Numbered from the stretch's first letter, positions 48,472 to 64,000 are shown. The stretch is 64,000 nt of DNA from Candidatus Obscuribacterales bacterium (GCA_965228855.1 CBDDIJ010000005.1:736001-800000), one strand, 5' to 3'. Made by a program: numbers and translations. The notes: generated from the sequence alone by a model not told the origin.

Positions 48472-49818
48472 ATGGTTTTCTCCAGGCAAGTCAGTATTTC
48501 ATCGTTTCATCGAGATGCGTGGGTCGAAATCGATCTATCCGCAGTCGAGCACAACGTTTCCGTCATTCGCTCTTGGCTTGCTGTCAACCCCAAACCGGCT
48601 CGTTTGATGGCCGTCGTCAAGAGCGACGCCTACGGCCACGGCGCTCCGCAAGTGGCTGATATGTTATCGAACTCCGGTGCCGAGTATCTTGGCGTCGCCT
48701 CCGTGGACGAGGGATGTCAGTTGAGATCGGCATCTATTAAGTCTCCAATCCTTATACTGAGTCCTACACCATTCTGGGCAATTGACAATGCGCTCGAAGA
48801 TGGGCTTGAACTGACAATCGCGGCCGTCAAACAGGCACGCGATATCGACAAAATTGCGCGAAAGCGCGGGCAAAGAGCTCGCGTTCATTTAAAGGTAGAC
48901 AGCGGAATGCACCGCCTGGGCGTCCCGCCGGAGGCCGCGCCCGCGCTAGTCGACGAGATCTCGAAACTGGCCAATGTCGATCTGGTTAGCGTGTTCAGCC
49001 ACCTCGCTCGCGCCGGCGATCAAGCTACGACAACTGCGCAATTGCGAGAATATGAAAGCGCCCTCAAGCGGCTCAACTACAGCCGCGACGGCAAAACCTT
49101 TTTCGCTCATCTGGCCTCGAGCGAGGCTGCTCGAAAATTTCCGGAGACCCACTTCGATATGGTGCGCGTCGGACTTTATCTATATGGGCTGGAAGGAACA
49201 GGAACGTCTGACGTTCTTGTTCCCGCCATGTCAGTCAAGGGACGAATCAATCACGTCAACCTGGTGAAAGAAGGCGATCGAGTCGGCTACAACTTGACCT
49301 GGGAAGCGCGTCGTGACTCGCGCCTGGCCTGCGTTCCGATTGGATATGCGGACGGCGTTGATCGTCGATTGTCAAACCGCATGGAGGGTCTGCTGCTGGG
49401 GCGCAAGATCAAGCAGGTCGGTATCATTTCAATGGACCAGATGCTCTTTGATATAACCGATGTTCCAGAGGCTCAGGACGGAGATGTCATAACGCTCATA
49501 GGCAAGGATGAACTGCCTACGGGTCGGTCATCGAAGAGCAACAAAGATGAAAATGGTAGTTCAACCTTCAGCGCCGCCGGCAAACACGAGCCTGCCGAAG
49601 TTTCGTTGAACCTGGCCAACTGGGCAGAGATGCTGGACACGATAACGTACGAGCTGGCGTGCAGATTGCGCGCTCGGTTGCCGCGAATTTACACGCGACA
49701 TCATAAAAGTGGCTCGGGAAGCGTGATCGCAACGGACATCGGAAAGCAAACAAACGCGTCGGCCGATACAAATGGCACCGTCCATTCCGAAAAACTTTCC
49801 ACAAAGCAACCGAGGTAA
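48472..49818 (+). CDS. alr: Alanine racemase
   Basis: AVVKSDAYGHG (PLP Lys), HLKVDSGMHRLG, PIGYADG, SMDQ, TITYE. Confidence 0.96.
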   Translation: MVFSRQVSISSFHRDAWVEIDLSAVEHNVSVIRSWLAVNPKPARLMAVVKSDAYGHGAPQVADMLSNSGAEYLGVASVDEGCQLRSASIKSPILILSPTPFWAIDNALEDGLELTIAAVKQARDIDKIARKRGQRARVHLKVDSGMHRLGVPPEAAPALVDEISKLANVDLVSVFSHLARAGDQATTTAQLREYESALKRLNYSRDGKTFFAHLASSEAARKFPETHFDMVRVGLYLYGLEGTGTSDVLVPAMSVKGRINHVNLVKEGDRVGYNLTWEARRDSRLACVPIGYADGVDRRLSNRMEGLLLGRKIKQVGIISMDQMLFDITDVPEAQDGDVITLIGKDELPTGRSSKSNKDENGSSTFSAAGKHEPAEVSLNLANWAEMLDTITYELACRLRARLPRIYTRHHKSGSGSVIATDIGKQTNASADTNGTVHSEKLSTKQPR

Positions 49819-49827
49819 CAAACAAAC

Positions 49828-50472
49828 TTGCGACAAATTGGCTTGTTCTGCGGAACCTTCAATCCGATTCATATGGGGCATTTGATCATCGCCGAATGTG
49901 CTCGGGATCAGTTTAAACTCGAAAAAGTATTGTTTGTGACCAGCCCGGCTCCACCACATCGAGCCGACACTCTGCTGGACGGGCACGCCCGTCACGAGAT
50001 GGTGAAGGCGGCGACCGCCGACAATCCATTCTTTGTGCCGTCGTCGATAGAAATAGACCGCACGGGACCCTCTTACACGATCGATACAGTGAAAGAGCTA
50101 CGCACCATATACGGTGAAGATCTTAAAATAAATTTGATCATAGGCGGCGACAACCTGCCCCAGCTTCATACCTGGAAGAACCACGAAGAGTTGCTCGAAC
50201 TCTGCCGCATACTAGTAGTACCGAGATTACGATATCTCGATGAAACCGATACAGCCTTGCGCGTAGTAGGCCAGGACTCAACCGTTTCCAATGTAGGCTA
50301 CGATGGCGCTGACATAGTGATCATCGACTTTCCCGGCATCAAGATCTCGGGCTCCAACATACGGGAGCGAGTCCGCGCCGGGAAGACCGTTCTATATATG
50401 GTTCCACCTGCAGTGAACGAATTGATTGTAAATCACGGCTACTTCAAGAAACAGTCGGCGACCGCGAAGTAA
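49828..50472 (+). CDS. nadD: Nicotinate-nucleotide adenylyltransferase
   Basis: GTFNPIHMGH, PPH, SYTIDT, IIGGD, ISGSNIRER. Confidence 0.93.
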   Translation: MRQIGLFCGTFNPIHMGHLIIAECARDQFKLEKVLFVTSPAPPHRADTLLDGHARHEMVKAATADNPFFVPSSIEIDRTGPSYTIDTVKELRTIYGEDLKINLIIGGDNLPQLHTWKNHEELLELCRILVVPRLRYLDETDTALRVVGQDSTVSNVGYDGADIVIIDFPGIKISGSNIRERVRAGKTVLYMVPPAVNELIVNHGYFKKQSATAK

Positions 50473-50495
50473 GCCGTTCTGGTAATATGGATTGA

Positions 50496-51185
50496 ATGAA
50501 GAGAGCAGACGACTTAGGTCAGAAAACTTTCAGCGTCCCAGGGGTCCCATCAAGCATGACTCTTGATGCCGCTCGGCGCTATGTGGAACCACGTGTTTCC
50601 AAAAAACGACTTGATCATATTAAAGGTGTTGTCACAGTTGGTCGGGAAATTGCGCTCGGTCTTCGCATAGATCCATTTCCCGTAGAACTTGGCTGCTGGC
50701 TGCACGACGCCTGCAAGGAATTAAAGGGAAAAGAACTGATCGAGATTGCGCAAACTAACGGCATGGTCTTGTCACAGGAAGAACTTGACCATGGACAAAT
50801 ACTGCACGGACCTGTAGCTGCCATTCTTGCAAAGAAGGAGCTCAAAATAACCAATCAAGATGTTCTCGGCTCAATTGCCGAGCACACTCTGGGAAGTGTC
50901 CGCATGTCCACAGTTTCCAAAATTGTCTACCTGGCCGACAAGCTCGAATCGTCGAGACCATCGGAGTTCACTGACCCGATCTGGCAGGCACTAAATGCGG
51001 TGCCAGTAGATGGACCACCTAATGCCTGCCACGATTTCAGTCAGACTGACCCTTCTGATTTGGACCGCGCGATGGTTGTCGCCTTGACTTTAATAGCAAA
51101 AAATCTGCTGAAGAAAAATAAGCCCATCCAACCGCAGGCAATGACCGTGCGCAACCACTTCTTGAAACTGCTTAAGACAACTTAG
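50496..51185 (+). CDS. yqeK: HD-domain bis(5'-nucleosyl)-tetraphosphatase YqeK-like
   Basis: R..H..GV, LHDACKE, LHGPVAA, EHTLG, YLADKLE..R; lies directly downstream of nadD. Confidence 0.85.
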   Translation: MKRADDLGQKTFSVPGVPSSMTLDAARRYVEPRVSKKRLDHIKGVVTVGREIALGLRIDPFPVELGCWLHDACKELKGKELIEIAQTNGMVLSQEELDHGQILHGPVAAILAKKELKITNQDVLGSIAEHTLGSVRMSTVSKIVYLADKLESSRPSEFTDPIWQALNAVPVDGPPNACHDFSQTDPSDLDRAMVVALTLIAKNLLKKNKPIQPQAMTVRNHFLKLLKTT

Positions 51186-51191
51186 CGGCTA

Positions 51192-53072
51192 CTAAATCTT
51201 CGGTAATTGCATCCAGAATTTAGAACCGGCTCCCTTGTCGACGGATAGTCCGACTTCGCCACCATGCTGTTCGATAATCGCTCGGCTCAGTGCAAGCCCC
51301 AAACCGAGCCAGGTGCCCTGCGCCATGCCAGGAAGATTGATCTGCTGGAAGCGTTCGAACATCGTTTCGATCTGCTCTTCCGGTATTTGCAGGGAAGGGA
51401 CCTGAATTTCGATAACGAGGTGAGGAGAAGTATGCGAAAGCAACTGCCTTGTAACTCGCGGCGTAACCACGTTGATAGAAACAGCTTCTCCCGGCGGCGT
51501 CAGCTGAATTACCGCAGTCAACATTTTTGTTAGAGCCTGAACCACGCGTTCGGGGTCCACTGTGACGAGGTCTTGCGAACCATCGAAGAGAAGAAGAATG
51601 TCGGCGGACTCGACCGCTCCGGCAACCGCTTCAACAGCCTTGTCTATGAGATCTTCGACCTCGGATTCGCATTTAACCAATTCGAGCTTATTAGCTTCCA
51701 GCTTTTCCAGGTCGAGCAGATCATTTATAAGCATGATGACCTGCTCTGTCTGTCGAGTAGCAACTGCCAGATCTTCTTCAACGGCGTCGATGTCCTTACC
51801 GAAAACGCCCATCCCGAGCAACTCTAGAAACATTGAAACCGACGCGAGCGGCGTTCGCAATTCATGGCTGACCATCGCCACGAATGCCTGACGCAACTTT
51901 TCTACCTCGTGACGCTCGCTGACATCAAGAACCATTGCCAGTTGGTGCTCGGTCTTGTCCGTGGAAATGTCGGCAGTAGAAAGCTCCACCGGAAATGTTG
52001 TGCCATCCTGCTTCTGAGCAATCAACTCCACGACGCGGCCAGTCGAATTATCTTTCAACCAGCGAAAGAGAGAGACACCCGTGACACCACCTGCAGTGAA
52101 TAATTTAGACAGTTCAAAATCTTCAAGAGCATCCTGCTCATATCCAAGCTGCTTTGCCAATGTGGGATTGACGAATTCGATTTGCCCGGCGCCGTTCACA
52201 ATCATCAAGCCCGCCGGCATCTGAGATATCATCGAGAGAACAGCACTCTCGCTGGATTTCAGTAGAGCCTCTTCACCGCGGAGCGATGAAGCCATTTTGT
52301 GAAAGGCTGCGTCCAGTTTTGCAAGTTCGTCTCCACCAGAGATTTCGCTATGCAGCGCCTCCCCGTCCTTCAAGCGGTCGAAGTTCTCCACCAGAATATT
52401 TAGCCGTTTGGTCAGAACAACGCGAACGAATAAAAGCACAATCAATACAACTAGTCCGTTTAAAACTGCTCCGCTAATCAAAACGAGTTTTGTAGCTTCT
52501 CGTTTTTCTCGCTGCAACGCGGGAAGTTGCCCTTCGATTGCACGCTCCTGTCCCATGAAATCTCGAAGATCGCGAACCAGTTCTTCAATCCGCGGAGCCA
52601 GGCGGTTTCTCTGGTCAAGACTAAACTTCATCGCCTCCCAGTGAGGTCTTGTATCACTGGCGATGCGCATCGATTCGAGGAGTTCAAGCCCGACTTTCAC
52701 GTTCTCCTCTATCTTGCCCATCAATACCAACTGACCGGGTTGATCTTGCAAATTTCTTTTCAGCCAGTCTATTTGCTTCGGAATTAAATCGCGAGCTTTT
52801 TCATATGCGGCCAGGCTCGCCGCCGAGGTCGCAGGATCATCTTCCTTATGAATTCCATATTTTCCGACCTTATCGCCGGCTTCGTACATACGCAGGAGTA
52901 GCTTGCTGGCACGATTGATGATCTCTCTGGTTTGCTGCTGCTTCACAGACTCCTCTTCAGCCTGCTGCACAAGCAAGAAATACGTTCCGAAGAAGATCGT
53001 CTCGAGGACGAGAATCGCGACTGTCAGCAGCATGCCTTTAGCACCGAGCGTTAGAGTGCCGGATCGCGTCAT
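51192..53072 (-). CDS. TM-HAMP-PAS sensor histidine kinase-like protein with intact H-box but degenerate ATP-binding domain
   Basis: SHELRTPL intact; N-box reads QALTKMLTAVIQL and G1 reads QVPSLQIP. Confidence 0.88.
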   Translation of the reverse strand: MTRSGTLTLGAKGMLLTVAILVLETIFFGTYFLLVQQAEEESVKQQQTREIINRASKLLLRMYEAGDKVGKYGIHKEDDPATSAASLAAYEKARDLIPKQIDWLKRNLQDQPGQLVLMGKIEENVKVGLELLESMRIASDTRPHWEAMKFSLDQRNRLAPRIEELVRDLRDFMGQERAIEGQLPALQREKREATKLVLISGAVLNGLVVLIVLLFVRVVLTKRLNILVENFDRLKDGEALHSEISGGDELAKLDAAFHKMASSLRGEEALLKSSESAVLSMISQMPAGLMIVNGAGQIEFVNPTLAKQLGYEQDALEDFELSKLFTAGGVTGVSLFRWLKDNSTGRVVELIAQKQDGTTFPVELSTADISTDKTEHQLAMVLDVSERHEVEKLRQAFVAMVSHELRTPLASVSMFLELLGMGVFGKDIDAVEEDLAVATRQTEQVIMLINDLLDLEKLEANKLELVKCESEVEDLIDKAVEAVAGAVESADILLLFDGSQDLVTVDPERVVQALTKMLTAVIQLTPPGEAVSINVVTPRVTRQLLSHTSPHLVIEIQVPSLQIPEEQIETMFERFQQINLPGMAQGTWLGLGLALSRAIIEQHGGEVGLSVDKGAGSKFWMQLPKI

Positions 53073-55072
53073 TTGTGAACCTCCGCGCTCTCACTCGACT
53101 CCGCATTGCCGAACAGGTCAAACTCCGTTGACGATATGTCATCACCAAACAGACTGATATCGGCGGACTCAATGGTATTGGAACTGTTACCCGGCACCAC
53201 CGAGGGTAGTTTAAACCAGAACGTGCTCCCTTTACCCTCCTCGCTGTTGACACCAATAGCGCCACCATGTTCCTCGATAATCGCCTTACAGATTGCCAGA
53301 CCTAAACCTGTTCCGCCCTTCTTCTTCGCATCATTAGCCTCTACTTGCTGAAAACGTTCAAAAACACTGTGCAAATGCGACTGCGGAATCCCACGCCCAT
53401 TATCAATCACACAAAACTCGACCAGCGAACCGACCTGCTGTACCGTTACGAGAACCTTGCTTTCCGCAGGCGAATACTTTATTGCGTTCGAGAGGAGGTT
53501 GATCAGAACTTGAACAATTCGATTCGAATCAGCAAAGAGCATGAGCTCAAGCGCCGGAACTTCGACTTCCACTTTATGCTTTTGAGCGAATACGGTAACC
53601 GCACTCGCGGATTTATCCAAAATAGGTTGCAACGAGCACCATCTTGGCTCGATATCGATGCGCCCAGCTTCCAACTTCTCCAGGTCGAAGAGATCGTTGA
53701 GAAGCAATATCAATCTTTCCACATTGTCGCGGGCGCGCGTGGATTCCCTGGTAGCTTTCTCTGAAACCTCACCATATTTGCCGTCAGCAAAGCTGGATAG
53801 GAACTGCTCCACGTCATTGAGTGGATTTCGCAGCTCATTGCTGACCATGGAAACGAACGACTGACGCAAACGTCGCAGTTCAAGTCGTTCTGTCGCATCA
53901 AGTATTATTGCTATCCTGCGCTTCGAACTTCCGATTGTCATCTCGGCGATGGTGAAATCAATGGCAAATTCTTCACCGTTTTTTCGCACCGCATTCAGTT
54001 CAACAATGTGTCCGAAAGCGCGTTCAGAGAGCGTCGCAAGAAAGCTGGCGCCGCTCCGCGCGCGGTCTGAGCCGAATAGCCGGGTAATGCTCTTACCCAA
54101 AAGCTCATGCGGCTCGAAACCAAATGAAGTTTCTATTGAACGATTGAACAGTTCAATCGCTCCAGCTTGGTTCATAACGACAAGGCCAAGAGGAACGCGC
54201 TCGATTATCATCCGCAAACGCCTTTCACTCTCCTTGAGGAGTTCTTCTTCGTACCGGACCTCCTCGGCGGCACGGTGAAAAACGTAGTCGGTCTGAGCGA
54301 TCTCGTCGTGGCCGTCCAGCATCTCGTTGAGCGGAAGCCCCTGCTCGAAACGCACTACGTTGTCGACGATCACATCGACGCGTCGAGTCACTCGCCGGAA
54401 GAAAAACAGCACCAGCAGCATTGCCACTGCGCCATTCATTCCGAATCCGACAATCAGCAAGTCGCGCCGCTGGCGGCGTTGCTCTCGCTGAAACTCGGGC
54501 GCCGAATTCTCGATTTCACGCGCAACATTCATCAGTTTGGTCAAATCAGAGATCAGTGCGTTGACATTCTCTAGAATCGCCAGACGACGCGTTCTCCACG
54601 CGGCAATCGACTCCTCTTGAGAAAGTTTTTCAGCGTCCTTTTTGATTCCGGCAATTACAGGCTCGCAGACATCCATGTTCATTTGAATTCTCGAAAGCAG
54701 TGTAGCGAAACGCTTCTTATCTCGAGGAGAAATAAAGTTGTTGATGTCATCTTTAAGATTAGCCTTCAACCATTTCATAATTTGCGGTACGTCTTCGCGC
54801 GAACTGTCATACCTCTGTGTTGCATCAATCTGCTGGGTATAGGCAAACTTACCTGCAGCATCACCCGTATCGTAAACAGTCAACAATAAGTCGCTTGCCT
54901 TTGCCACAATTTGCCGAGCGAATTCCTGCTTTCGCGCCTCATTCTCTGCTTCTTGCAAGAGACCATATAATGCCCAGACAAACCAGAGCATCGAAAAAAG
55001 AAACACCGTCAGCAGTACCATGATCTGCCTTGCCAAACTAAGTTTTCGAAACACCCCAAACCGAAGAGGCAC
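53069..55072 (-). CDS. TM-HAMP-PAS sensor histidine kinase-like protein lacking the phospho-acceptor His (H->N) but with intact HATPase_c
   Basis: SNELRNPL H-box; NLLSNAIKYS, DNGRGIP, VFERF and GGTGLGLAI all canonical. Confidence 0.88.
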   Translation of the reverse strand: MPLRFGVFRKLSLARQIMVLLTVFLFSMLWFVWALYGLLQEAENEARKQEFARQIVAKASDLLLTVYDTGDAAGKFAYTQQIDATQRYDSSREDVPQIMKWLKANLKDDINNFISPRDKKRFATLLSRIQMNMDVCEPVIAGIKKDAEKLSQEESIAAWRTRRLAILENVNALISDLTKLMNVAREIENSAPEFQREQRRQRRDLLIVGFGMNGAVAMLLVLFFFRRVTRRVDVIVDNVVRFEQGLPLNEMLDGHDEIAQTDYVFHRAAEEVRYEEELLKESERRLRMIIERVPLGLVVMNQAGAIELFNRSIETSFGFEPHELLGKSITRLFGSDRARSGASFLATLSERAFGHIVELNAVRKNGEEFAIDFTIAEMTIGSSKRRIAIILDATERLELRRLRQSFVSMVSNELRNPLNDVEQFLSSFADGKYGEVSEKATRESTRARDNVERLILLLNDLFDLEKLEAGRIDIEPRWCSLQPILDKSASAVTVFAQKHKVEVEVPALELMLFADSNRIVQVLINLLSNAIKYSPAESKVLVTVQQVGSLVEFCVIDNGRGIPQSHLHSVFERFQQVEANDAKKKGGTGLGLAICKAIIEEHGGAIGVNSEEGKGSTFWFKLPSVVPGNSSNTIESADISLFGDDISSTEFDLFGNAESSESAEVHK

Positions 55073-55749
55073 TATGATTTCCTCTCCGTGTCAAACAGAA
55101 AACCGACACCATGAACGGTGCGAATGAACTCTCCATCCGGGTCGATTTTCTTTCGGAGGCGCTTCAACGTACTTTTCGTTGCTTCCAGCGTAGACTCTGA
55201 CTCCGACGACCAGATGCGGTTAAGCAATTCCTCAGCGGAAAAGACTTGATCGGGATGTCGCATCAAAAATTCGAGAAGTTGAAATTCTTTTGGCAACAGC
55301 TTCGCAGAGGAACCACCAAAGCGCACCTTCTGCTGCTTCCGGTCGAGCAGGAAATTCCCAACATGCAAGTCATTGCTGAGCACATCAGAAGGACGTCTAA
55401 GTAGAGCCCGAACCCGCGCGCTTAGTTCCTTAGCGCTGAAAGGTTTAGTCAGATAGTCGTCAGCACCGCTGTCGAGTCCTGTTTCCTTATCCTCAACCGC
55501 ATCCTTGCCCGTGAGCATAATTACAGGCAAATGACCATTTGCTCTTCGATACTCCTGTAGCAACGCAATTCCGCTCGCGTCAGGCAACTGCCAGTCCAAG
55601 ATAATCAAGTCCAACTCCGGAATCAAAAATTTTTCTTGAGCATCTCGACCATCATAAGCAACCTCTACTTCGTAATTTTCGTGAGTCAAAGTTTGCTGGA
55701 CGAGGTCCGCAAGCCCTTTGTCATCATCCACTATTAGTATCTTCGTCAT
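55072..55749 (-). CDS. OmpR/PhoB family response regulator
   Basis: ILIVDDD, IILDWQLP (phospho-Asp), MLTG, GADDYLTKPF, winged-helix effector (TVHGVGF). Confidence 0.95.
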   Translation of the reverse strand: MTKILIVDDDKGLADLVQQTLTHENYEVEVAYDGRDAQEKFLIPELDLIILDWQLPDASGIALLQEYRRANGHLPVIMLTGKDAVEDKETGLDSGADDYLTKPFSAKELSARVRALLRRPSDVLSNDLHVGNFLLDRKQQKVRFGGSSAKLLPKEFQLLEFLMRHPDQVFSAEELLNRIWSSESESTLEATKSTLKRLRKKIDPDGEFIRTVHGVGFLFDTERKS

Positions 55750-55775: not shown

Positions 55776-56810
55776 TTACAAACGCCGACTCTTTAATGTC
55801 ATGCTTGCTGAACCGTCAGCAGAATCATACGACACATCACCAGTGGCTGGGTCCAGTTTCAAATTCATGATCTGCGTAGTAATCCGATCCCGCCCTTTAC
55901 GAAACGGCTCTGTGGCGTAGTAGACCTCGGCTCCATCATGAGTTCTGTACTGATGAATCTGCCAGCCACTATTCAAGAAAGCGACCGTGTATGCACCATC
56001 ATTCGCCTCCGCGTAAATGTTTCCAGTTGTCGGATCGATCACCAGACCACTGAGGATAAAAAATTTGAACCGATTGCCTGTAGTCTTCAAAGCGAGAACA
56101 GACTCATCGCGTCCTTCAGCATTTCGGATGCTACTCCCGTCGTTCATCGTGATCAGCACAGGCTCCGCTCGATTGAAAAAGATATTCCATAGAGGTTCGC
56201 CATTGCGGGCGGTAACAGCGAGCTCATTCGTTACGGTAATTTGGTCCTCGCCTGCCTCAATGTCGTCATCGTCGTCGTGGTCTTCGTTTTCTTCGTCGTT
56301 TTCTTCGTCGTTTTCTTCGTCTTCGTCTTCGTCATCATCATCGTCGTCGTTGTCATCATCATCGTCGTCGTCGGCATCATCGTCGTCATCGTCGTCTATG
56401 TCATCTTCATCTTCGTCCTCGACGTCTCCAGCGGTTTCGTCGTCAAAGTCTTCATCGTCGTCAGGGCTGTTTCCATCTTCATCGTCGTGCTCAGGTTCGT
56501 CATCGTCGTCCTCGACCTCGACTTCATTTTCGCCGACGAATTCATCGTCGTCATCGACGTCTTCAGCATCATCAACGCGATCAGGCGCAGAAGGTTTCCG
56601 CTCATGAGATGAACCTTGCAAGTGAACCGCTGGCTGTTTGATCTCCATAACCTCAGGCGGCAAAAGATCAGAGGCTCGGCCAAAGACGGAACTGATTCCA
56701 CTCGACTTCCCTTGCTTGAGATTGTCGATGTAATTTTTATATCGCTGCATGTGCTTCGACATGTCGCCGCCGGATTCGAGTTCTTCATCCCCGTTTTCGT
56801 CGCTATTCAA
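55776..56810 (-). CDS. Hypothetical protein with long Asp/Glu low-complexity tract
   Basis: 344-aa ORF with AGGAG RBS before a TTG start; ~100-aa D/E tract followed by a beta-rich globular domain. Confidence 0.75.
   Translation of the reverse strand: MNSDENGDEELESGGDMSKHMQRYKNYIDNLKQGKSSGISSVFGRASDLLPPEVMEIKQPAVHLQGSSHERKPSAPDRVDDAEDVDDDDEFVGENEVEVEDDDDEPEHDDEDGNSPDDDEDFDDETAGDVEDEDEDDIDDDDDDDADDDDDDDNDDDDDDEDEDEENDEENDEENEDHDDDDDIEAGEDQITVTNELAVTARNGEPLWNIFFNRAEPVLITMNDGSSIRNAEGRDESVLALKTTGNRFKFFILSGLVIDPTTGNIYAEANDGAYTVAFLNSGWQIHQYRTHDGAEVYYATEPFRKGRDRITTQIMNLKLDPATGDVSYDSADGSASMTLKSRRL
56260..56575. repeat. Trinucleotide-type low-complexity repeat (TCG/TCA/TCT) encoding poly-Asp/Glu, including 12-bp TCTTCGTCGTTT units
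   Basis: Visible directly; encodes DDDDDD and EENDEENDEENED. Confidence 0.85.
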
Positions 56811-56953: not shown

Positions 56954-59900
56954 ATGGCTAACAAGGGCAAAGGCGACAAGGTCAGCCCACCGAAAGTGGA
57001 AGCGCCTAAACCAGCAGCTAAAGCAATAGCTCAGAATCTTTACCAGCCACCCAAATCGAAAGCAAGACCCGAAAGCGCTCCTAAAGCGAAGCCGGCAGAG
57101 GCTGCGCCCAAACCGAAGCCGGCTAAAGCCAGGGCAGAGGTGGCAAAACCGGCTCACGGAAAAGCTAAAGATGCGCCAAAACCAGCAGCAAAACGACCAG
57201 CAGAAGGCAAGCGACCGGCCGAGGTGAAGGCGAAGCCAGCAAAACCCGCCGCGCGCCAGGAAAAGCAGGAATCGGCGAAACCCAAAGCCAGAGATAAGGC
57301 GCCGAAGCCCAAGGCGACAGAGAAAGCGAAACCGCAAGAGGGGCTTCTGCAGCGCGGTTTGACGAGCGCGATGAATCTCTACAAACAAGTGACGCACGCA
57401 GGTGACTCAAAGCCCCAGAAGGGAAAAACAGCAGGCGCTAAGGCGGAGCAATCGAAAGCAGGACATGCAAAAACGGAGCAAATAAAACCGGGTCATGCGA
57501 AGCCGGGCCAAGCTAAACCGGAGCAGTTGAAACCCGGGAAAGCAGCCGCCAGGGCGGAGTCAAAAGTAGAGAATCGCGCGTCGAATAAGCCGGCGCACTC
57601 AGATAAAACCGCACCGCGAAAAGAAGTAAAAGAAGCTCATACCAAGCCCGCCGCGAAGGACAAGGGGCATGAGAAACCGGAAAAAACGGCGAGAGTCGAG
57701 TCGAACGAACATCAAAAAGACAAAGCAAAACCGAAAACTGACAAGACCAACGGCAGAGCGGACGCGCAGTTGAAGAAAGAGCCGGAATCAGGGTTTAGCC
57801 TGACAAATCTGGCAGGCAAAGCCATTGAAACAGGCAAAAAACTTCTGCTGCCTGAAGCAGAAAAACCGCACGTCAACAAAGTGGAGAACGCGGATAAACT
57901 CACGCCGCAGCAGCGAAAAGAAAAGGGCGTCACGGATTATGTGGATCCGAAAACCGGTGATAGATACAACTACAATCAAGACGGCTTAGTCAAAGAAGTC
58001 GAAACCAAGGGCAAGCTCAAAACATCCTATGAATACAAAGACGGCAAGCCGGTCAATATAAGCAAGACTCAAAAGGTTTTGTTCCTCAATCTCGCTGTCG
58101 GCAGTGCTGAAGCGGTTCCAGGCAAGGTAGCTTTAAGCGTTGACCAGGACTCCGGAGAAGCACGCACATCGAGGCACAACGTAATTCAGCAACGCGACGA
58201 AAAAACGAATAAAGTTCGAAATGTGGAAGTGAAGCAAGAGATGGTGTTTCACACGAATGGCGAAAAGTCTTCGATTACGAGCAATTTGGATGGTCGACGG
58301 TTGCAGAAAGAGCATTTGAGCGCTGACGATAAGACAACAGGAATCACCACCTATCAATATGGAGAACGACGCCCAGGGCAGACCGATGGACCCGTTCGCG
58401 CGCAGCAAACCGATAAGTCTGGTCGCGTTGTGCACAATATTGACTTCACAAGCGAAAAGGACCTGAAGCAGCAAAAGGCTGCAGCACGAGAAGACATCAA
58501 ATACGAACGCAAAGGTGCAATCGAATCTGAGCATCATGAAACTTTCGACCTGCGCAGCGGCAAGGAAGTCATCGTTAATAAGACCGACAAAACGACCGAC
58601 TACAAGCAAGGGAGTACAACTGTTCGCGAACAGCAGTTCGATAAAGGAAAACTTGCAATAGACCAAACGGTGAAATATGACGAACGCGCCAGGGTTATTG
58701 AGATGCAGTACAAGGACGTTCAGAAGAATGTCGATGTTCAAGTCAAATTTGACAGCAACGGTAAAAGTCAGGAAGTAAAAGGTAATTTCAAGAATTACAC
58801 CGATGACCAGTCCACGATGAAACTGTACATGGACGGTCAAGCTGGACGGATTTTGGGTCAGCATCGAGTTGACACTATTGATACCGGTGAGATGCTCCGG
58901 TATTGCGAGAAATCAAATCCGAGGGAAGGAGAAAAGCCTACGGGAGTTGTCTCCTGGAAAACACCAGGCGAAGATAACTTGACACAAGCAACCGTTAAAG
59001 ATGGTATCGTATATGATGCCGACAAAAACAAGATTGGAAGGATCAATGACCGCGGCGATCTGACGTTGAACAGCGGTGCTCAGTTCAACGTCATCAATGA
59101 CAAACAATATGCAGCTATGTTTCATGGCGTCGGGACCGACGACCATCCCCTGAATCTTTATGGCACAGAGGGCATGACCGGTTATATGTCCTCGCAAGGA
59201 GACCGCGTGCTCATGGTCGGCGGCAACATGATCGACGCCCAGGGGAAAATCATCGGTCACATGAACGATGACGGTCGAATGATATTTGCAAAAGGCGTAA
59301 AACAAGACGCCGGAACCGACATAAAGAGCTACATGCATGGCGGCTATGTCTTCAAAGGAAACGAAGACGGCAATGAGAGAAGATTTTTCGTTGACAGTAT
59401 TTCGAACGGACAGATGTTCGTTCAGAAAACCGATAAGAGCGGCAATCAAATTCTCGATACAAATGGTCAACCAGTAAAACCGCTCGACTGCGAGATGCGG
59501 CTTGGGATGGTTATCGATAAGAGTTCCGGCAAACAGTTGTACAACTTCGTGCCACCGGATGTTAATGAAGATGAAACCTTCAGCGGAGGCTTCATGATTT
59601 CAATGGGAGACTCGCCCAAGATGACGGCACTCTCCGAGATGAAAGGCACAAGTTTCAACGTCACGGTGCTGGGCAATCAAAACACTTACAAAATGGTCGG
59701 CATCGCTACAGGTCCGCAGCAGTTTCAAGCTGATGGAACGGCAATCAGAGGAAGCGGCGGCGTCGTCAACCTTGACAGGGAACTCAAGCTCGAGAAACAG
59801 AATTTCGATACCCGAACGCGAGCTTTAAACGAGCGTCTCGATGAAGAAAAGAATATGCGCCTCAAAGGACTGGGCGTGGGAACCGCAATGCTCAATCCCG

Positions 59901-62900
59901 CAGGCGGTCTGGCGATGGCTGATGCCTACAACGAAGCAACTGGCGGGAAGGCTCAAACTGAAGCAGAGAGAACAGCATTCGACCTTGCTCAAAAACACTA
60001 CGTCGATCAAACCGCAGATATAAATCGCATCATCACAAGCGGACAAATAGACAACAACACGCTGTACAAGCTGCAAACGGGCAATGAAAAGATCCGCCAA
60101 TCGCAACTGGATCAACTCGATCGGATGCAGCTCCTTATCAACAATCCTGAACACAAGCTCGAAAATGTAACTGCAAAAACAGTCGATGGAACAATTAAGC
60201 GTCCTGATTTAAACAATCCAGGACACATCGTTGATTACGAAGTGCGGGCCAATCTGATCTATAAGAAGGGCACCACAAACGCGATCGGACAGGTTAACGC
60301 ACAAGACGGCACGATGAAAATTTATGATGCGTCGGGTCGCGTCGAAGTGACGAAGATGAACGACCGTCGCCTTGCCGGCACCATAATTCATTTGGAAGGA
60401 ATGACAGAAACAGGAGAAAAGCAATCCGTAGATTGGCTCTCTGACGGGACAGGAAAGCTTCAAAGTTTTGCGGAGATGCGTAAACAAGCCGCAGATCAAA
60501 GAAAGTTTTTCGAAGTTCTTGCCGGCGATCCAGGAAGTTCTCAGCGAGCCAAAGACGGTCTGGCAAGGACGCTGCACAATGAGCAACGCTTCAACAACAC
60601 ACTCGACGACATGCTGAAGAACGGAATTCGCGATGTGTCTGTTGACAAACAGGGACGTATCAACCCAGGTTATAACCTCGGAAAAATCATCGAAGGTCCG
60701 AAGAAGAATATTCAAGCGGAGGACTTTCTTCAGGAGGAAAAAATTCCGCCCAAGAAAGTCAACGTTCACTCCTTCCAATCGCAGGAAGAGTGCAACAAAA
60801 CAAGCGGCGCTATGCGTGTCGGCAAAGATCTTTACTACGTAGAAAAGGGAACGCTTTACCACGCTAAAACAGAAGGAGGCAAAACAGTTCGTGTCGGAGA
60901 ACCGGTGGGGACGCTTGAGCCTGGCTATGTAGCTCAAATTGGCGGAAAACGAATCTCGTTGCAAAACGAATCGCAGTTTCTGTTTCAATTCAAAATCGAC
61001 GGTGACAGTCAGGAGCACAGAATATTTGGAACGGGTGCCGCACATATCGATGAGTCCGGGCGTTTTGTTAAAGGCGGGCTTGTCGATGCAAGAGAGCTGC
61101 TCAACGGCGGCGCCGAAGCAAAAGCAGCGGCCAACCAGGCGATGCAAGACTATTTCGATGAGAAACCGGGTGGGAACTTCATTGCAGACACGCTGGGATG
61201 GTCCGTAAATGTCGGTCTGGGCGATCGCGAAGGACAAATGCGATACGTCAACGAAACTATCGGCAACCAGAATGCGGCAATGAAGATGCAGCTGGACAGC
61301 ATGTTCGCGCATGGTCTTGCGGAAGACGGCATGACTAACAATCAGATTGATAAGGGCGTCAACACGACAAATCGTTTTATGCGAGATTTGAATATGTCCG
61401 CAGCGGACATGGATCAGATGTCGCAAGAAGGGCGCAACATTCAAAAGCAGACATCCGAAAGCACGGCGATGGCTATGATGAGTTTGATTCCAGGAGGCGT
61501 AACATTCGCAGCGGGCAGAATGGGTGCAGGCAGCTTACTCGCAACTAATGCGGCTGCACGGTTTGGCGTGGCCGTCGTCGCCGGAGGTACGATTTCGGTA
61601 GCCACTAGGCAATCGAATAAGGTGGACGTTGCCACCGCATTCGGTACTGGCGGGCTAGAAGCAGGGGCTATGTTAATCGGAGCTGAAGGCACTCAGTTTC
61701 TGGAGAAATTGAAACACGTCAACGCAGCCAGCAAACTTGGCACGGCGGAAGCAGTGAAAGTTCTGGGCTCGCCGGAAATTGCGCCAATCCTCAAAGACAA
61801 GGCCGGCAGAGCTCTGGTCGAGATGGCACTGAAACCGGGGGGAGACAAAGTTCTGGAAGGAGTCTGGCGCGTCGCAAATGCAGGCTTTCAAACCACCGCA
61901 CTCACTGGAGCCAGCAGTCTTAGAGAAGGCAACTTCAATATGATGACCCCGGACAAATTGCTGGAGGGTGGCGCGTTTATGCTGGCCGCGGACGCAGTTA
62001 CACTTCTTGCAAAAGTTCCAACTCCAGGAGCCGAGTGGAAATTACAAGGAAGAGTCGGCAAATTTATTGACGGCAATATCAAACAGCTAGCCGAGGATTC
62101 GGTGAACAATGTCAGCAATTCTTTGATGAGTGCCCGGGTTCAAGCAAACGAAGCCGAGCTGGAAAACATATCCAGAGAGAGGGGAATTCCGAAAGACCTG
62201 ATCAGTAAAGAGCAGTTCGAGAAGTGGAAAAACCAATCAAGAATTAACTCGTTTCTCGTTCAAAGTGTAGCGGATAGCGTCGCGTCATCCCTGGTTTCCG
62301 CGCCGATGAACCACGCGATGTCATCGGCGACGCATCCGCAAAGTCACGCGGAACACATGCCGAAAGACTCGACAGCCGACAGCCCCGGTAACTCCCCGCG
62401 CTCAAGCGAGCGTGACACCATAAGCGGTGATACTGTGCGTTTGGACGGTGATGATCAGAAACGTGCCTCCGAGCAGGTTGAGTCTTCCAAAATTGAAACT
62501 CCTTTCGGGTACACACGCATCACGCCGGACGGTGAAAACATAACTATCGAACCACATTCCGGCGGAAGCTATCAGTACAACGTCAAAGATGGGCGCATAA
62601 ATCTCGTTCGTGATACCGGCGGAAGTGAAACGAGTATTGCATACGACAAACAAGGGGAAGTCAGCGCTCTGCACGTCAAGAACGGCGAACACACTGCAGT
62701 TTGGCAAAAGCAAGGCGATGAATGGGTAGTTCAAACTGGGGGAATCGAACTTCGTTCCAGAGAGAAGATCTCGGTCACAGAAGATGGTCGCATCATCCAT
62801 ATTTCAGACAACAGTCGGCAAGTAAAAAACCTCGACGGCTCCATGCTGACGTCCGATGGCAAGGGCGGGACAGAAACACTTTTGAATCCCAATCTTAATG

Positions 62901-64000
62901 AAGACGTCAGACTGAATCATGTGATGAAACTGATCGAGCACAATGTCACAGATGATGTTCTAGCGAGCAGGATTACCGCAAATATCAATCACCTGATGGA
63001 GCGTGTCATCGTGACGGGCAAAGATCGGGCTGAGTTTGCAAAAACACTTCTGCATGTGAGCGATTTGCTGCTTGATAAACCCGATGCAAAACTCGACAAA
63101 ACAACTCGTCAGCGACTCGCAGAAGAAGTCCTCTGGCTGGCGGCAAATCCGACGTATCTCAGTCAAGGCCGCCATCCCACTTGCGCAGTCGCGGCGGCCG
63201 AAGTTCGTCAGTATATGGAACACCCTTCCGACGTTGTTAGAGCGATCGCGGAACTTGCGAATACCGGACAATATCGTTGTCCGGACGGAACTGTTTTGCG
63301 CCCATTCCACGCGGATGGAGAATGGATTTTCCAGCCCGACACAGACGCAAAAGTACCATATGAAATTAGAAAAACGACCGGCGAACCCGGTTCATATGAC
63401 TCGCCAAGACTTATGGCTAGCCAACTCTGGCAGACACTGGCGATAACCGGATATTACAACGCAAACGGATTTAAAGGCGATCGACAATTGATCGGCAAAC
63501 TTGGATATCACGACGAATACATTTCCGATATGTCTAAAAATCCACCGGAGAAAGTAGCAGCGTCTGATGGCCCGCAGATGAACGGCGAGATGCTGATCAA
63601 GGCGGTAAATCAGCTAACCGGACGAACAGAGAACCTGGCGCTCTCTCATAAGCGATACGAAGGAGCCGAGGGGGCGCACACGTTTAGAAACGAGCGCGAA
63701 TTTACGTCCAAATTACTTGATCTACACGAGGACGGAAAGTTTCCAGTGATGTTCATAGTAGACACTCGCAACCCACCATGGAATCACGGGGACTTTGGAG
63801 GTTCACACGCAATCACCATTTTGGGTATTGAAACAAACGTAAGCCCTACCGACTTGCGAAAAATTGGCGACATCCTGCCCAGCCGTGGCACCATCGACAG
63901 TACCAGCGGAGAAATGAAACTACCAAGTCTCAAGGACATACAAATTCGAATCGACAATCAGTGGGGCAAAAAGCACGATTGGAATCTTCAGAAAATCACC
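56954..64000 (+). CDS. Giant (>=2349 aa, 3'-truncated) toxin/effector-like protein with C-terminal papain-like cysteine peptidase domain
   Basis: ATG at 56954 after GGAGAG. The frame stays open to the window end, which explains its absence from the stop-terminated ORF track. It has a K/P/A-rich N-terminus, YD-like beta repeats, a Gly/Ala-rich hydrophobic block, and the motifs SQGRHPTCAVAA, GGSHAITILG and IDNQWG. Confidence 0.85.
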   Translation, partial: MANKGKGDKVSPPKVEAPKPAAKAIAQNLYQPPKSKARPESAPKAKPAEAAPKPKPAKARAEVAKPAHGKAKDAPKPAAKRPAEGKRPAEVKAKPAKPAARQEKQESAKPKARDKAPKPKATEKAKPQEGLLQRGLTSAMNLYKQVTHAGDSKPQKGKTAGAKAEQSKAGHAKTEQIKPGHAKPGQAKPEQLKPGKAAARAESKVENRASNKPAHSDKTAPRKEVKEAHTKPAAKDKGHEKPEKTARVESNEHQKDKAKPKTDKTNGRADAQLKKEPESGFSLTNLAGKAIETGKKLLLPEAEKPHVNKVENADKLTPQQRKEKGVTDYVDPKTGDRYNYNQDGLVKEVETKGKLKTSYEYKDGKPVNISKTQKVLFLNLAVGSAEAVPGKVALSVDQDSGEARTSRHNVIQQRDEKTNKVRNVEVKQEMVFHTNGEKSSITSNLDGRRLQKEHLSADDKTTGITTYQYGERRPGQTDGPVRAQQTDKSGRVVHNIDFTSEKDLKQQKAAAREDIKYERKGAIESEHHETFDLRSGKEVIVNKTDKTTDYKQGSTTVREQQFDKGKLAIDQTVKYDERARVIEMQYKDVQKNVDVQVKFDSNGKSQEVKGNFKNYTDDQSTMKLYMDGQAGRILGQHRVDTIDTGEMLRYCEKSNPREGEKPTGVVSWKTPGEDNLTQATVKDGIVYDADKNKIGRINDRGDLTLNSGAQFNVINDKQYAAMFHGVGTDDHPLNLYGTEGMTGYMSSQGDRVLMVGGNMIDAQGKIIGHMNDDGRMIFAKGVKQDAGTDIKSYMHGGYVFKGNEDGNERRFFVDSISNGQMFVQKTDKSGNQILDTNGQPVKPLDCEMRLGMVIDKSSGKQLYNFVPPDVNEDETFSGGFMISMGDSPKMTALSEMKGTSFNVTVLGNQNTYKMVGIATGPQQFQADGTAIRGSGGVVNLDRELKLEKQNFDTRTRALNERLDEEKNMRLKGLGVGTAMLNPAGGLAMADAYNEATGGKAQTEAERTAFDLAQKHYVDQTADINRIITSGQIDNNTLYKLQTGNEKIRQSQLDQLDRMQLLINNPEHKLENVTAKTVDGTIKRPDLNNPGHIVDYEVRANLIYKKGTTNAIGQVNAQDGTMKIYDASGRVEVTKMNDRRLAGTIIHLEGMTETGEKQSVDWLSDGTGKLQSFAEMRKQAADQRKFFEVLAGDPGSSQRAKDGLARTLHNEQRFNNTLDDMLKNGIRDVSVDKQGRINPGYNLGKIIEGPKKNIQAEDFLQEEKIPPKKVNVHSFQSQEECNKTSGAMRVGKDLYYVEKGTLYHAKTEGGKTVRVGEPVGTLEPGYVAQIGGKRISLQNESQFLFQFKIDGDSQEHRIFGTGAAHIDESGRFVKGGLVDARELLNGGAEAKAAANQAMQDYFDEKPGGNFIADTLGWSVNVGLGDREGQMRYVNETIGNQNAAMKMQLDSMFAHGLAEDGMTNNQIDKGVNTTNRFMRDLNMSAADMDQMSQEGRNIQKQTSESTAMAMMSLIPGGVTFAAGRMGAGSLLATNAAARFGVAVVAGGTISVATRQSNKVDVATAFGTGGLEAGAMLIGAEGTQFLEKLKHVNAASKLGTAEAVKVLGSPEIAPILKDKAGRALVEMALKPGGDKVLEGVWRVANAGFQTTALTGASSLREGNFNMMTPDKLLEGGAFMLAADAVTLLAKVPTPGAEWKLQGRVGKFIDGNIKQLAEDSVNNVSNSLMSARVQANEAELENISRERGIPKDLISKEQFEKWKNQSRINSFLVQSVADSVASSLVSAPMNHAMSSATHPQSHAEHMPKDSTADSPGNSPRSSERDTISGDTVRLDGDDQKRASEQVESSKIETPFGYTRITPDGENITIEPHSGGSYQYNVKDGRINLVRDTGGSETSIAYDKQGEVSALHVKNGEHTAVWQKQGDEWVVQTGGIELRSREKISVTEDGRIIHISDNSRQVKNLDGSMLTSDGKGGTETLLNPNLNEDVRLNHVMKLIEHNVTDDVLASRITANINHLMERVIVTGKDRAEFAKTLLHVSDLLLDKPDAKLDKTTRQRLAEEVLWLAANPTYLSQGRHPTCAVAAAEVRQYMEHPSDVVRAIAELANTGQYRCPDGTVLRPFHADGEWIFQPDTDAKVPYEIRKTTGEPGSYDSPRLMASQLWQTLAITGYYNANGFKGDRQLIGKLGYHDEYISDMSKNPPEKVAASDGPQMNGEMLIKAVNQLTGRTENLALSHKRYEGAEGAHTFRNEREFTSKLLDLHEDGKFPVMFIVDTRNPPWNHGDFGGSHAITILGIETNVSPTDLRKIGDILPSRGTIDSTSGEMKLPSLKDIQIRIDNQWGKKHDWNLQKIT

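What the first reader, a model, noticed from the sequence alone, without database searches (positions are those of the whole stretch)
51192..55749. Complementary split histidine kinase pair: one subunit has the His, the other has the ATPase
Seen: RR, HK-B and HK-A are translationally coupled (TAGTG and ATGA overlaps). Both kinases share a TM-periplasmic sensor-TM-HAMP-PAS-DHp-CA architecture. HK-B (53069..55072) has a canonical catalytic domain (NLLSNAIKYS, DNGRGIP, GGTGLG), but its H-box is SNELRNP (Asn codon at 53837-53839, residue ~412). HK-A (51192..53072) keeps SHELRTP (His codon at 51864-51866, residue ~403), but has lost both N-box Asn residues (TKMLTAVIQ) and the G1 DxGxG (QVPSLQ). Established: HisKA kinases are dimers that need the H-box His plus the N/G1 residues for ATP binding, and many phosphorylate in trans. 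Inference: neither homodimer can autophosphorylate, but an A/B heterodimer or complex could. That would create a two-sensor coincidence detector (AND gate) feeding one OmpR-type regulator.
Basis: partly seen in the sequence, partly recalled or inferred. Interest (0 to 1): 0.93.

Follow-up and report, generated by a model that had tools for sequence, protein, structure and literature searches.

The report
Mirror-image half-dead sensor kinase pairs
Two neighbouring membrane sensor-kinase genes have each lost the opposite half of the kinase chemistry, a pairing that recurs eight times in this genome and across related uncultured bacteria, so the two proteins likely work only as one mixed dimer, much like the known streptococcal FasB/FasC pair.

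Summary
Observation confirmed. HK-B lacks the phospho-His and has an intact ATP site; HK-A is the reverse. This is neither error nor decay. The genome (an Obscuribacteraceae-like MAG) holds 8 such adjacent pairs; I collected 61 pairs from 34 genomes in 11 genera, in five lineages. Both genes of this lineage are under purifying selection. This pair arose by tandem duplication of a normal kinase, and two lineages are shown to have separate origins. New evidence for mechanism: DHp residues split in mirror image. A keeps the His helix face and K/R at H+54 (61/61; B 28/61). B keeps R/K at H+41 (61/61; A 12/61). Mapped onto the VicK and CpxA structures, these form one complete active site only in a trans A/B heterodimer. 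Against: the nearest solved relatives phosphorylate in cis, and no complex was modelled or assayed. The AND gate is unsupported: both sensors are conserved, but in FasBC one membrane sensor region is dispensable. It works like FasB/FasC (2025) and CheA3/CheA4, and this scan noted similar pairs in other phyla. New variant of a known kind; the repeated origin and residue-level signature are new in my searches.

The parts
55072..55749 (-). OmpR-type response regulator, canonical active site (D52 at 55594-55596)
   Evidence: Pfam Response_reg + Trans_reg_C; residues; below every NCBIfam cut-off shown
53069..55072 (-). HK-B, the ATPase donor: TM-helical sensor-TM-HAMP-PAS-DHp(His-less)-intact CA, plus a ~40-aa C-terminal tail
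53837..53839 (-). Asn412 codon in place of the phospho-His of HK-B
   Evidence: His absent in 26 of 26 orthologues; identical in a contig of run X4
53714..53725 (-). HK-B N450 and R453 (H+38, H+41): helix-2 residues matching VicK E253/R256, which bond to the active CA; kept in B, lost in A
53486..53500 (-). HK-B N-box, N525 and N529, intact
   Evidence: 61 of 61 B-type genes
54665..54667 (-). Periplasmic Cys136 of HK-B, invariant in its orthologues, not conserved in HK-A or single kinases; role unexplained
51192..53072 (-). HK-A, the His donor: same layout, full H-box, CA with dead ATP site
51864..51866 (-). His403, the predicted single phospho-acceptor (with E404, R406, T407)
   Evidence: acid at +1, Arg at +3 and T/S at +4 each in 61 of 61 A-type genes
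51702..51716 (-). HK-A L453 and K457 (H+50, H+54): match VicK L265/R269 and CpxA L292/R296, supplied by the subunit that does not carry the active CA; kept in A
51513..51527 (-). HK-A dead N-box (K516 and A520 at the two Asn positions)
55776..56810 (-). Acidic protein of unknown family, 26 bases upstream of the RR; travels with this pair; membership of the system not shown
   Evidence: next to the pair in 9 other genomes; no credible Pfam, NCBIfam or Atlas hit

Best explanation
HK-A and HK-B are duplicated, half-dead copies of one membrane sensor kinase that likely assemble as a mixed dimer, in which the ATP domain of HK-B would phosphorylate His403 of HK-A and HK-A would pass the phosphate to Asp52 of the neighbouring regulator. 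Shown: the reciprocal losses, their conservation and selection, the origin by tandem duplication from regulator + single-kinase loci, and the mirror split of DHp residues. Inferred: the heterodimer, the trans direction, transfer to this regulator, and a dead CA of HK-A parked permanently on the bundle. The dimer would have one working site (His helix and helix-2 top from A; helix-2 face and CA from B) and one abandoned site, fixing in the genes the asymmetry that normal kinase dimers adopt while active. The T/S at H+4 kept in A suggests that any phosphatase activity is at the same site. The signal is unknown; one joint sensing unit is the simplest reading.
For: (1) G000: 8 of 8 His+/ATP-dead kinases are adjacent to a His-less/ATP-intact one, among 106 kinase-like ORFs. 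(2) 61 pairs, 34 genomes, 11 genera, five lineages. Positions not used to define the classes split too: first N-box Asn B 61/61, A 1/61; G1 Asp B 61/61, A 11/61; T/S/N at H+4 A 61/61, B 16/61; small residue at H+8 A 58/61, B 4/61. (3) Helix 2: R/K at H+41 B 61/61, A 12/61, controls 87/90; K/R at H+54 A 61/61, B 28/61, controls 90/90; the direction is the same in all five lineages. In VicK, R256 (+41) bonds to the active CA, while L265/R269 (+50/+54) come from the other monomer (PMC3582566; mapping). In trans-acting CpxA the +50/+54 residues lie on the monomer opposite the active CA (PMC3904827). All conserved elements meet in one site only if A and B share a bundle and act in trans. (4) Purifying selection in every domain: A 0.03-0.16, B 0.06-0.11; dead CA 0.14 against 0.058 in B and 0.065 in single kinases. 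(5) A and B of this lineage nest among regulator + single canonical kinases. (6) Precedent: FasB/FasC form heterodimers, not homodimers, and need FasC H246 but not its kinase domain (PMC12675982).
Against: The best structure and family matches are VicK, WalK, SrrB, HK853 and PhoR. VicK, WalK and PhoR are reported as cis-acting (HK853 cis is recalled). The hairpin length (51) equals HK853's and is unchanged in 88 of 90 controls, 26 of 26 A and 20 of 26 B of this lineage. A cis bundle would put B's CA on B's own Asn. The chain of VicK E253/R256 is not stated in the text read; I infer it is the CA's own chain. In this lineage +54 splits weakly (A 26/26, B 22/26). B often keeps the H+1 acid (41/61), and this HK-B keeps E413, R415 and N416. 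One B has His at the site (G002:C99) and 6 of 26 have His at H-1. R at +41 is not universal among other canonical kinases of the genome (43 of 85). The genomes are kin, so the counts are not independent. No biochemistry and no model of the complex.
Confidence: 0.8

Rival explanations
1. Two-input AND gate: each subunit binds its own ligand and both must be bound for output.
For: Both sensors are under purifying selection as strong as in single kinases (0.047, 0.065 against 0.058). Each has its own invariant residues, such as C136, P138 and W159 in B and G66, I121 and F172 in A.
Against: Residues conserved in single-kinase sensors are partly shared out between A and B (A-only K49, Y90; B-only Q16, A46, L180), as expected for one asymmetric unit. 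FasB's membrane domains are dispensable. No ligand is known and nothing here tells AND from OR or from one site. Helical sensors that bind one ligand at the dimer interface are recalled, not checked.
Confidence: 0.15
2. Separate A2 and B2 homodimers meet transiently, CheA3/CheA4-style, and the CA of B2 reaches the His of A2.
For: It avoids the cis problem. CheA3/CheA4 work this way (PMC3591291). A lone invariant periplasmic Cys in B could link B to B.
Against: It does not explain why B keeps the helix-2 face (+38/+41) that A has lost, nor why the conserved residues of HAMP and the linker are shared out between A and B. Both keep full, co-linear membrane architectures.
Confidence: 0.1
3. Independent jobs: HK-A is a membrane phosphotransfer or phosphatase protein fed by other kinases (ChpT-like), and HK-B is a DivL-like pseudokinase or a dedicated phosphatase.
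For: A keeps T/S at H+4 in 61 of 61. This HK-B keeps ExxN. The genome has 85 canonical kinases. 5 of its 8 pairs have no regulator within 3.5 kb.
Against: In G000 no His+/ATP-dead kinase stands alone. B has lost T/S/N at H+4 in 45 of 61 and the small residue at H+8 in 57 of 61, that is, the regulator-docking helix, while its catalytic ATP residues stay invariant.
Confidence: 0.07
4. Sequencing error or decaying pseudogenes.
For: AAT differs from CAT by one base. One A-type gene (G006:C4) has an in-frame stop.
Against: Six different residues replace the His in 26 orthologues. dN/dS is at most 0.16 in all domains. A second sample's contig is identical at the site.
Confidence: 0.01

Closest known systems
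Streptococcus pyogenes FasB/FasC with FasA (PMC12675982; passages and first part of the Discussion read)
   Same: Two co-transcribed full-length membrane kinases and one regulator; heterodimer, not homodimer; ATPase from one subunit and His from the other in the authors' model.
   Different: Fas kinases have six TM helices and FasA binds a ComE-like site. Here there are two TMs, a helical periplasmic sensor, HAMP, PAS, a WalK/PhoR-like core and an OmpR regulator. FasB still has two histidines and cis transfer was not excluded. FasB's TM part and FasC's CA can be deleted, whereas here all domains are under selection. Fas is one locus; here there are eight per genome with several origins.
Rhodobacter sphaeroides CheA3/CheA4 split kinase (PMC3591291; passages read)
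   Same: Neither protein autophosphorylates alone; the mixture does.
   Different: Class II chemotaxis kinases that lost whole domains and meet transiently. Here both keep every domain and lost only catalytic residues.
CpxA (trans) and VicK/WalK (cis) homodimeric HisKA kinases (PMC3904827, PMC3582566, PMC11371814; passages, one full section)
   Same: Same fold and catalytic residues; active dimers have one mobile and one parked CA.
   Different: They are homodimers with two interchangeable sites. Here the asymmetry is written into two genes. The sequence is closer to the cis kinases but the pattern needs trans.
GacS/RetS heterodimer; DivL pseudokinase; M. tuberculosis Rv0600c/Rv0601c-TcrA
   Same: Two kinase-like proteins act together, or a kinase lacks its His (passages; DivL from search listings only).
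   Different: RetS inhibits GacS and both also homodimerise. DivL has no ATP-dead partner gene (recalled). For Rv0600c/Rv0601c the passage read says only two kinases and one regulator; the split of ATP site and His is recalled.

Membership tests
Canonical HisKA homodimeric sensor kinase | Phospho-His in the H-box and an intact N/G1/G2 ATP site in the same chain | tested here: not met
   HK-A lacks the ATP site, HK-B lacks the His
Canonical HisKA homodimeric sensor kinase | HisKA + HATPase_c domains | tested here: met
   Both above the Pfam cut-offs in both proteins
WalK / PhoR / VicK equivalogs | Score above the NCBIfam cut-off | tested here: not met
   WalK 170 and 224 bits against 725; PhoR 133 and 214 against 334
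Split (bipartite) histidine kinase, functional kind | His and ATP site on different polypeptides | tested here: met
   61 pairs
Split (bipartite) histidine kinase, functional kind | Neither protein autophosphorylates alone; the mixture does | not testable with these tools
   Needs in vitro assay
FasBCA system | Two six-TM kinases, a regulator binding a ComE-like site, and the fasX RNA | tested here: not met
   Two TMs each and an OmpR-type regulator against the description in PMC12675982; the RNA was not searched for
FasBCA system | Heterodimer preferred over homodimers | not testable with these tools
   Indirect support only, from the mirror conservation
CheA3/CheA4 | Class II kinase with P1/P5 domains and whole-domain loss | tested here: not met
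   HisKA-type, all domains kept
Trans-autophosphorylating kinases | Hairpin handedness that brings the CA to the partner's His | tested here: inconclusive
   The conservation pattern needs trans; the nearest structures are mostly cis and have similar hairpin lengths

The most novel reading that the evidence does not exclude
Obscuribacteraceae repeatedly turn ordinary sensor kinases into obligate mirror-image heterodimers (up to five times, with a sixth, still intact tandem family caught on the way). They do so on a WalK/PhoR-like scaffold that had to act in trans, and use the two retained sensors as a real two-input gate, giving a combinatorial receptor system like eukaryotic kinase/pseudokinase pairs.
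Probability: 0.15. Interest if true: 0.87.

Novelty: new variant of a known kind. Interest (0 to 1): 0.66.

Why it matters
Sensor kinases are treated as homodimers, and one of the papers read calls heterodimers rare. Annotation would list both genes here as ordinary kinases. A lineage with eight such pairs per genome, at least two separate origins, unsplit relatives and a possible intermediate gives natural replicates for how a homodimer becomes an obligate heterodimer after duplication. The pairs also label, residue by residue, which subunit supplies each part of the active site. That makes three things testable with wild-type proteins: one-site-at-a-time activity, what sets cis versus trans, and whether signal passes through one subunit or both. 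The pairs are also a ready scaffold for two-input synthetic sensors.

Tried and rejected
A single-chain fold of HK-A was accepted but had not finished, so no model or fold search was used. A profile search of the sensor against solved structures gave only generic helical bundles (best E 0.0013), so the ligand is not identified. The Atlas gave no usable hit for the acidic protein. Origins: a single origin of all five B lineages was not rejected on HAMP+core columns (p-AU 0.15); only lineages 1 and 3 are shown separate. Interface: a look for charge complementarity between B helix 1 and A helix 2 showed no clear pattern. Hairpin length does not change in lineages 1, 3 and 4, so it gives no sign of a cis-to-trans switch. 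Promoter and terminator scans were at chance level. Runs: no RNA holder listed; raw reads of X21 did not cover the locus. Papers: Ashenberg 2013 and the SrrB structure paper are not held, so trans action of SrrB is recalled and not used. HmrABCX and a sensing review were not relevant. Searches listed no paper on these pairs; the library lacks most subscription papers, and no supplements were read. Look-ups by place in earlier findings were empty.

Full report
OBSERVATION. The three genes lie on the minus strand as described: regulator 55072-55749, HK-B 53069-55072, HK-A 51192-53072, with TAGTG and ATGA overlaps. HK-B has Asn412 at the H-box and intact N, G1 and G2 boxes. HK-A has His403 but Lys516/Ala520 at the two N-box Asn positions, no G1 DxGxG, and Leu for the first G2 Gly. 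HK-B has no other His in its DHp. Both have two TMs, a weakly CHASE3-like helical sensor, HAMP, PAS, HisKA and HATPase_c; the regulator is OmpR-type with a full active site. No NCBIfam cut-off shown is reached; the nearest are WalK, PhoR and PnpS. A named genome with a 97% identical HK-A is a Candidatus Obscuribacterales MAG.

NOT AN ERROR. Orthologous pairs were read in full in 24 genomes of 6 genera (26 pairs). None has His in B; six different residues replace it. A contig of run X3 matches the whole stretch (it may be the source), and a contig of another sample (X4) matches 53527-53893 without differences. Raw reads did not cover the site. On six close comparisons per class, which are not independent, dN/dS is 0.047/0.034/0.157/0.044/0.143 for HK-A sensor/HAMP/PAS/DHp/CA and 0.065/0.095/0.110/0.068/0.058 for HK-B; single kinases give 0.058 for the sensor and 0.065 for the CA. 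The dead CA is relaxed but still kept.

A GENOME-WIDE HABIT. An HMM census of the own genome found 106 kinase-like ORFs: 85 canonical, 8 His+/ATP-dead, 11 scored His-less/ATP-intact and 2 lacking both. All 8 His+/ATP-dead genes overlap a His-less/ATP-intact gene. Of the other three His-less calls, one is a CheA, one has a His that was misaligned, and one (C5:110976) is a true lone, soluble His-less kinase. Three of the eight pairs have a regulator within 3.5 kb. Searching 104 genomes of the family with members of each pair gave 236 kinase genes after de-duplication. From these I took 61 pairs in 34 genomes and 11 genera, in five lineages: 26 (this one, order B>A), 9 (two PAS, B>A), 12 (no PAS, A>B), 7 (no PAS, A>B, including an A-B-A-B array) and 7 (B>A). 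The 61 are 59 automatic adjacencies, minus one double count, plus three pairs added by hand: one whose B has His at the site but no acid at +1 (G002:C99), and two whose A has an aligned Asn but a degenerate G1. Left out: six cases whose partner is cut by a locus or contig end, one pair whose A has an in-frame stop (G006:C4), and one His+/ATP-dead gene at a contig end with no partner in view (G017:C93). Controls are 90 canonical genes from the same loci, after dropping four unrelated kinases. These loci were chosen by similarity and are not a census. The HK-A profile found no match at 1e-130 in 178 sampled genomes of other families of the class.

ORIGIN. B-type genes form five separate, well-supported clades among canonical kinases, but one origin of all five is not rejected (p-AU 0.15). 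With sensor, HAMP and DHp columns (trait columns removed), the A and B genes of this lineage both nest among regulator + single-kinase loci (G101, G113, G010, G114, G020). Joining them to lineage 3 is rejected for A (p-AU 3e-46) and for B (4e-5) (quick LG+G4 trees, unrooted). Sensor similarity agrees: A of this lineage scores 113 bits with its own B, up to 170 with single kinases, and at most 52 with other A lineages. So there are at least two origins by tandem duplication and reciprocal loss. A sixth tandem family keeps His and both N-box Asn in both genes (28/28 upstream, 29/29 downstream) but diverges unevenly: R at +41 in 26/28 upstream and 7/29 downstream (13 Lys), and Ala at H+4 in 13/28 upstream. 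It may be an intermediate stage; that is a lead only.

MECHANISM. His presence and the second N-box Asn define the classes, so only other positions count. Helix 1: acid at +1 A 61/61, B 41/61; Arg at +3 A 61, B 23; T/S/N at +4 A 61, B 16; small residue at +8 A 58, B 4. CA: first N-box Asn B 61, A 1; G1 Asp B 61, A 11. Helix 2: R/K at +41 B 61, A 12, controls 87/90; N/D/E at +38 B 52, A 16; L/I/M at +50 A 61, B 28 (26 of the rest are Phe, in this lineage); K/R at +54 A 61, B 28, controls 90/90. The +4, +8, +41 and +54 differences run the same way in all five lineages, though +54 only weakly in this one (26 against 22 of 26). By the alignment, +38/+41/+50/+54 are VicK E253/R256/L265/R269. In VicK the active CA bonds to E253 and R256, while L265 and R269 come from the other monomer and touch the His (PMC3582566; passages and section 14). 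In CpxA, which acts in trans, E249, R251 and N356 activate the His, L292/R296 (+50/+54 by my count, which rests on a recalled CpxA register) lie on the monomer opposite the active CA, and one CA is mobile while the other is parked (PMC3904827; passages). Inference: the CA and its own helix-2 face come from B, the other helix-2 top and the His helix come from A. These meet in one site only in an A/B bundle acting in trans. The second site collects every degenerate element. HK-A keeps the hydrophobic anchors of its CA (F-box Phe 47/61, G2 Leu 47/61), which fits a permanently parked CA.

AGAINST. The best solved matches are VicK, WalK, SrrB and HK853. VicK and WalK are cis, as are PhoR and MtrB (PMC5956149; passages); direction is set by hairpin handedness, not by active-site residues. 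The hairpin is 51 residues in 88/90 controls, 26/26 A and 20/26 B of this lineage, the same as HK853 in the alignment. So either this family was already trans or the pair switched; I could not test this. The chain of VicK E253/R256 is my inference. This particular HK-B keeps E413, R415 and N416, so a phosphatase role for it is not excluded. Six of 26 B orthologues carry His at H-1. Nothing was assayed or modelled.

THE AND GATE. Both sensors are conserved and each has private invariant residues. But residues conserved in single-kinase sensors, HAMP and linker are partly divided between A and B, as expected of one asymmetric receptor. In FasBC the ATPase donor's membrane part is dispensable, at least when overexpressed. 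I put a true two-ligand gate at about 0.15.

KNOWN SYSTEMS. It works like FasB/FasC (PMC12675982; passages and part 1 of the Discussion) and CheA3/CheA4 (PMC3591291; passages), but is a member of neither family. GacS/RetS is an inhibitory heterodimer. Papers on ChrS, DivL, PsmA and heteromer evolution after duplication were seen as search listings only. Ten searches listed nothing on these pairs. Earlier notes of this scan report similar pairs in Nitrospirota and Bacteroidota and a CheA pair; I did not check them, and they are not independent support.

VERDICT. Real, conserved, and most likely an obligate trans-acting heterodimeric kinase (0.8). The principle is published, so it is a new variant of a known kind. 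What lifts it is the scale (8 pairs per genome), the repeated origin, the residue-level mirror signature, and the tension with a cis-type scaffold. Interest 0.66.

Noticed in passing
L105:976-4676 and L106:627-4222 (G000:C2:2414976-2418676; C3:2881627-2885222); relatives L193-L222: A sixth tandem kinase family keeps His and ATP site in both genes but diverges unevenly at H+4, +41 and +53; longer arrays occur in G102:C43, G110:C372 and G113:C260. It may be an intermediate on the way to the split. One downstream copy (L212) has Arg for His.
   Followed up: partly
window 55776-56810 (-): Acidic 344-aa protein with a conserved C-terminal domain of no known family; single copy in the genome; lies next to this kinase pair in 9 other genomes, in varying orientation.
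   Followed up: partly
L062:1481-3118, L068:1683-3275, L084:6044-7639, L061:9457-10501: In several genera the regulator near the pair is a receiver + shortened winged helix + Ser/Thr protein kinase fusion, mostly transcribed away from the pair.
   Followed up: partly
window 54665-54667 (-): A single periplasmic Cys (C136-x-P138) and W159 are invariant in all 26 HK-B orthologues and not conserved in HK-A or single kinases.
   Followed up: no
L121:3690-5180; L063, L067, L073, L074, L076, L077: One B-type gene has His at the H-box without the adjacent acid; six others have His one residue earlier.
   Followed up: partly
L183/L184 (G050:C11:95065-100942): A-B-A-B array: the whole pair duplicated in tandem.
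   Followed up: no
G000:C2:1273485-1275920 (-) and C5:110976-112541 (+): A membrane kinase lacking both His and ATP site, and a lone soluble His-less kinase with an intact ATP site.
   Followed up: no
window 56954-64000 (+), running on to G000:C5:803498: Giant 3514-aa ORF with a Lys/Pro/Ala-rich N-terminus, divergent from the kinase operon.
   Followed up: no
window 48472-51185 (+): Alanine racemase-like, NadD-like and HD-domain genes converge on HK-A with only 6 bases between the stop codons.
   Followed up: no
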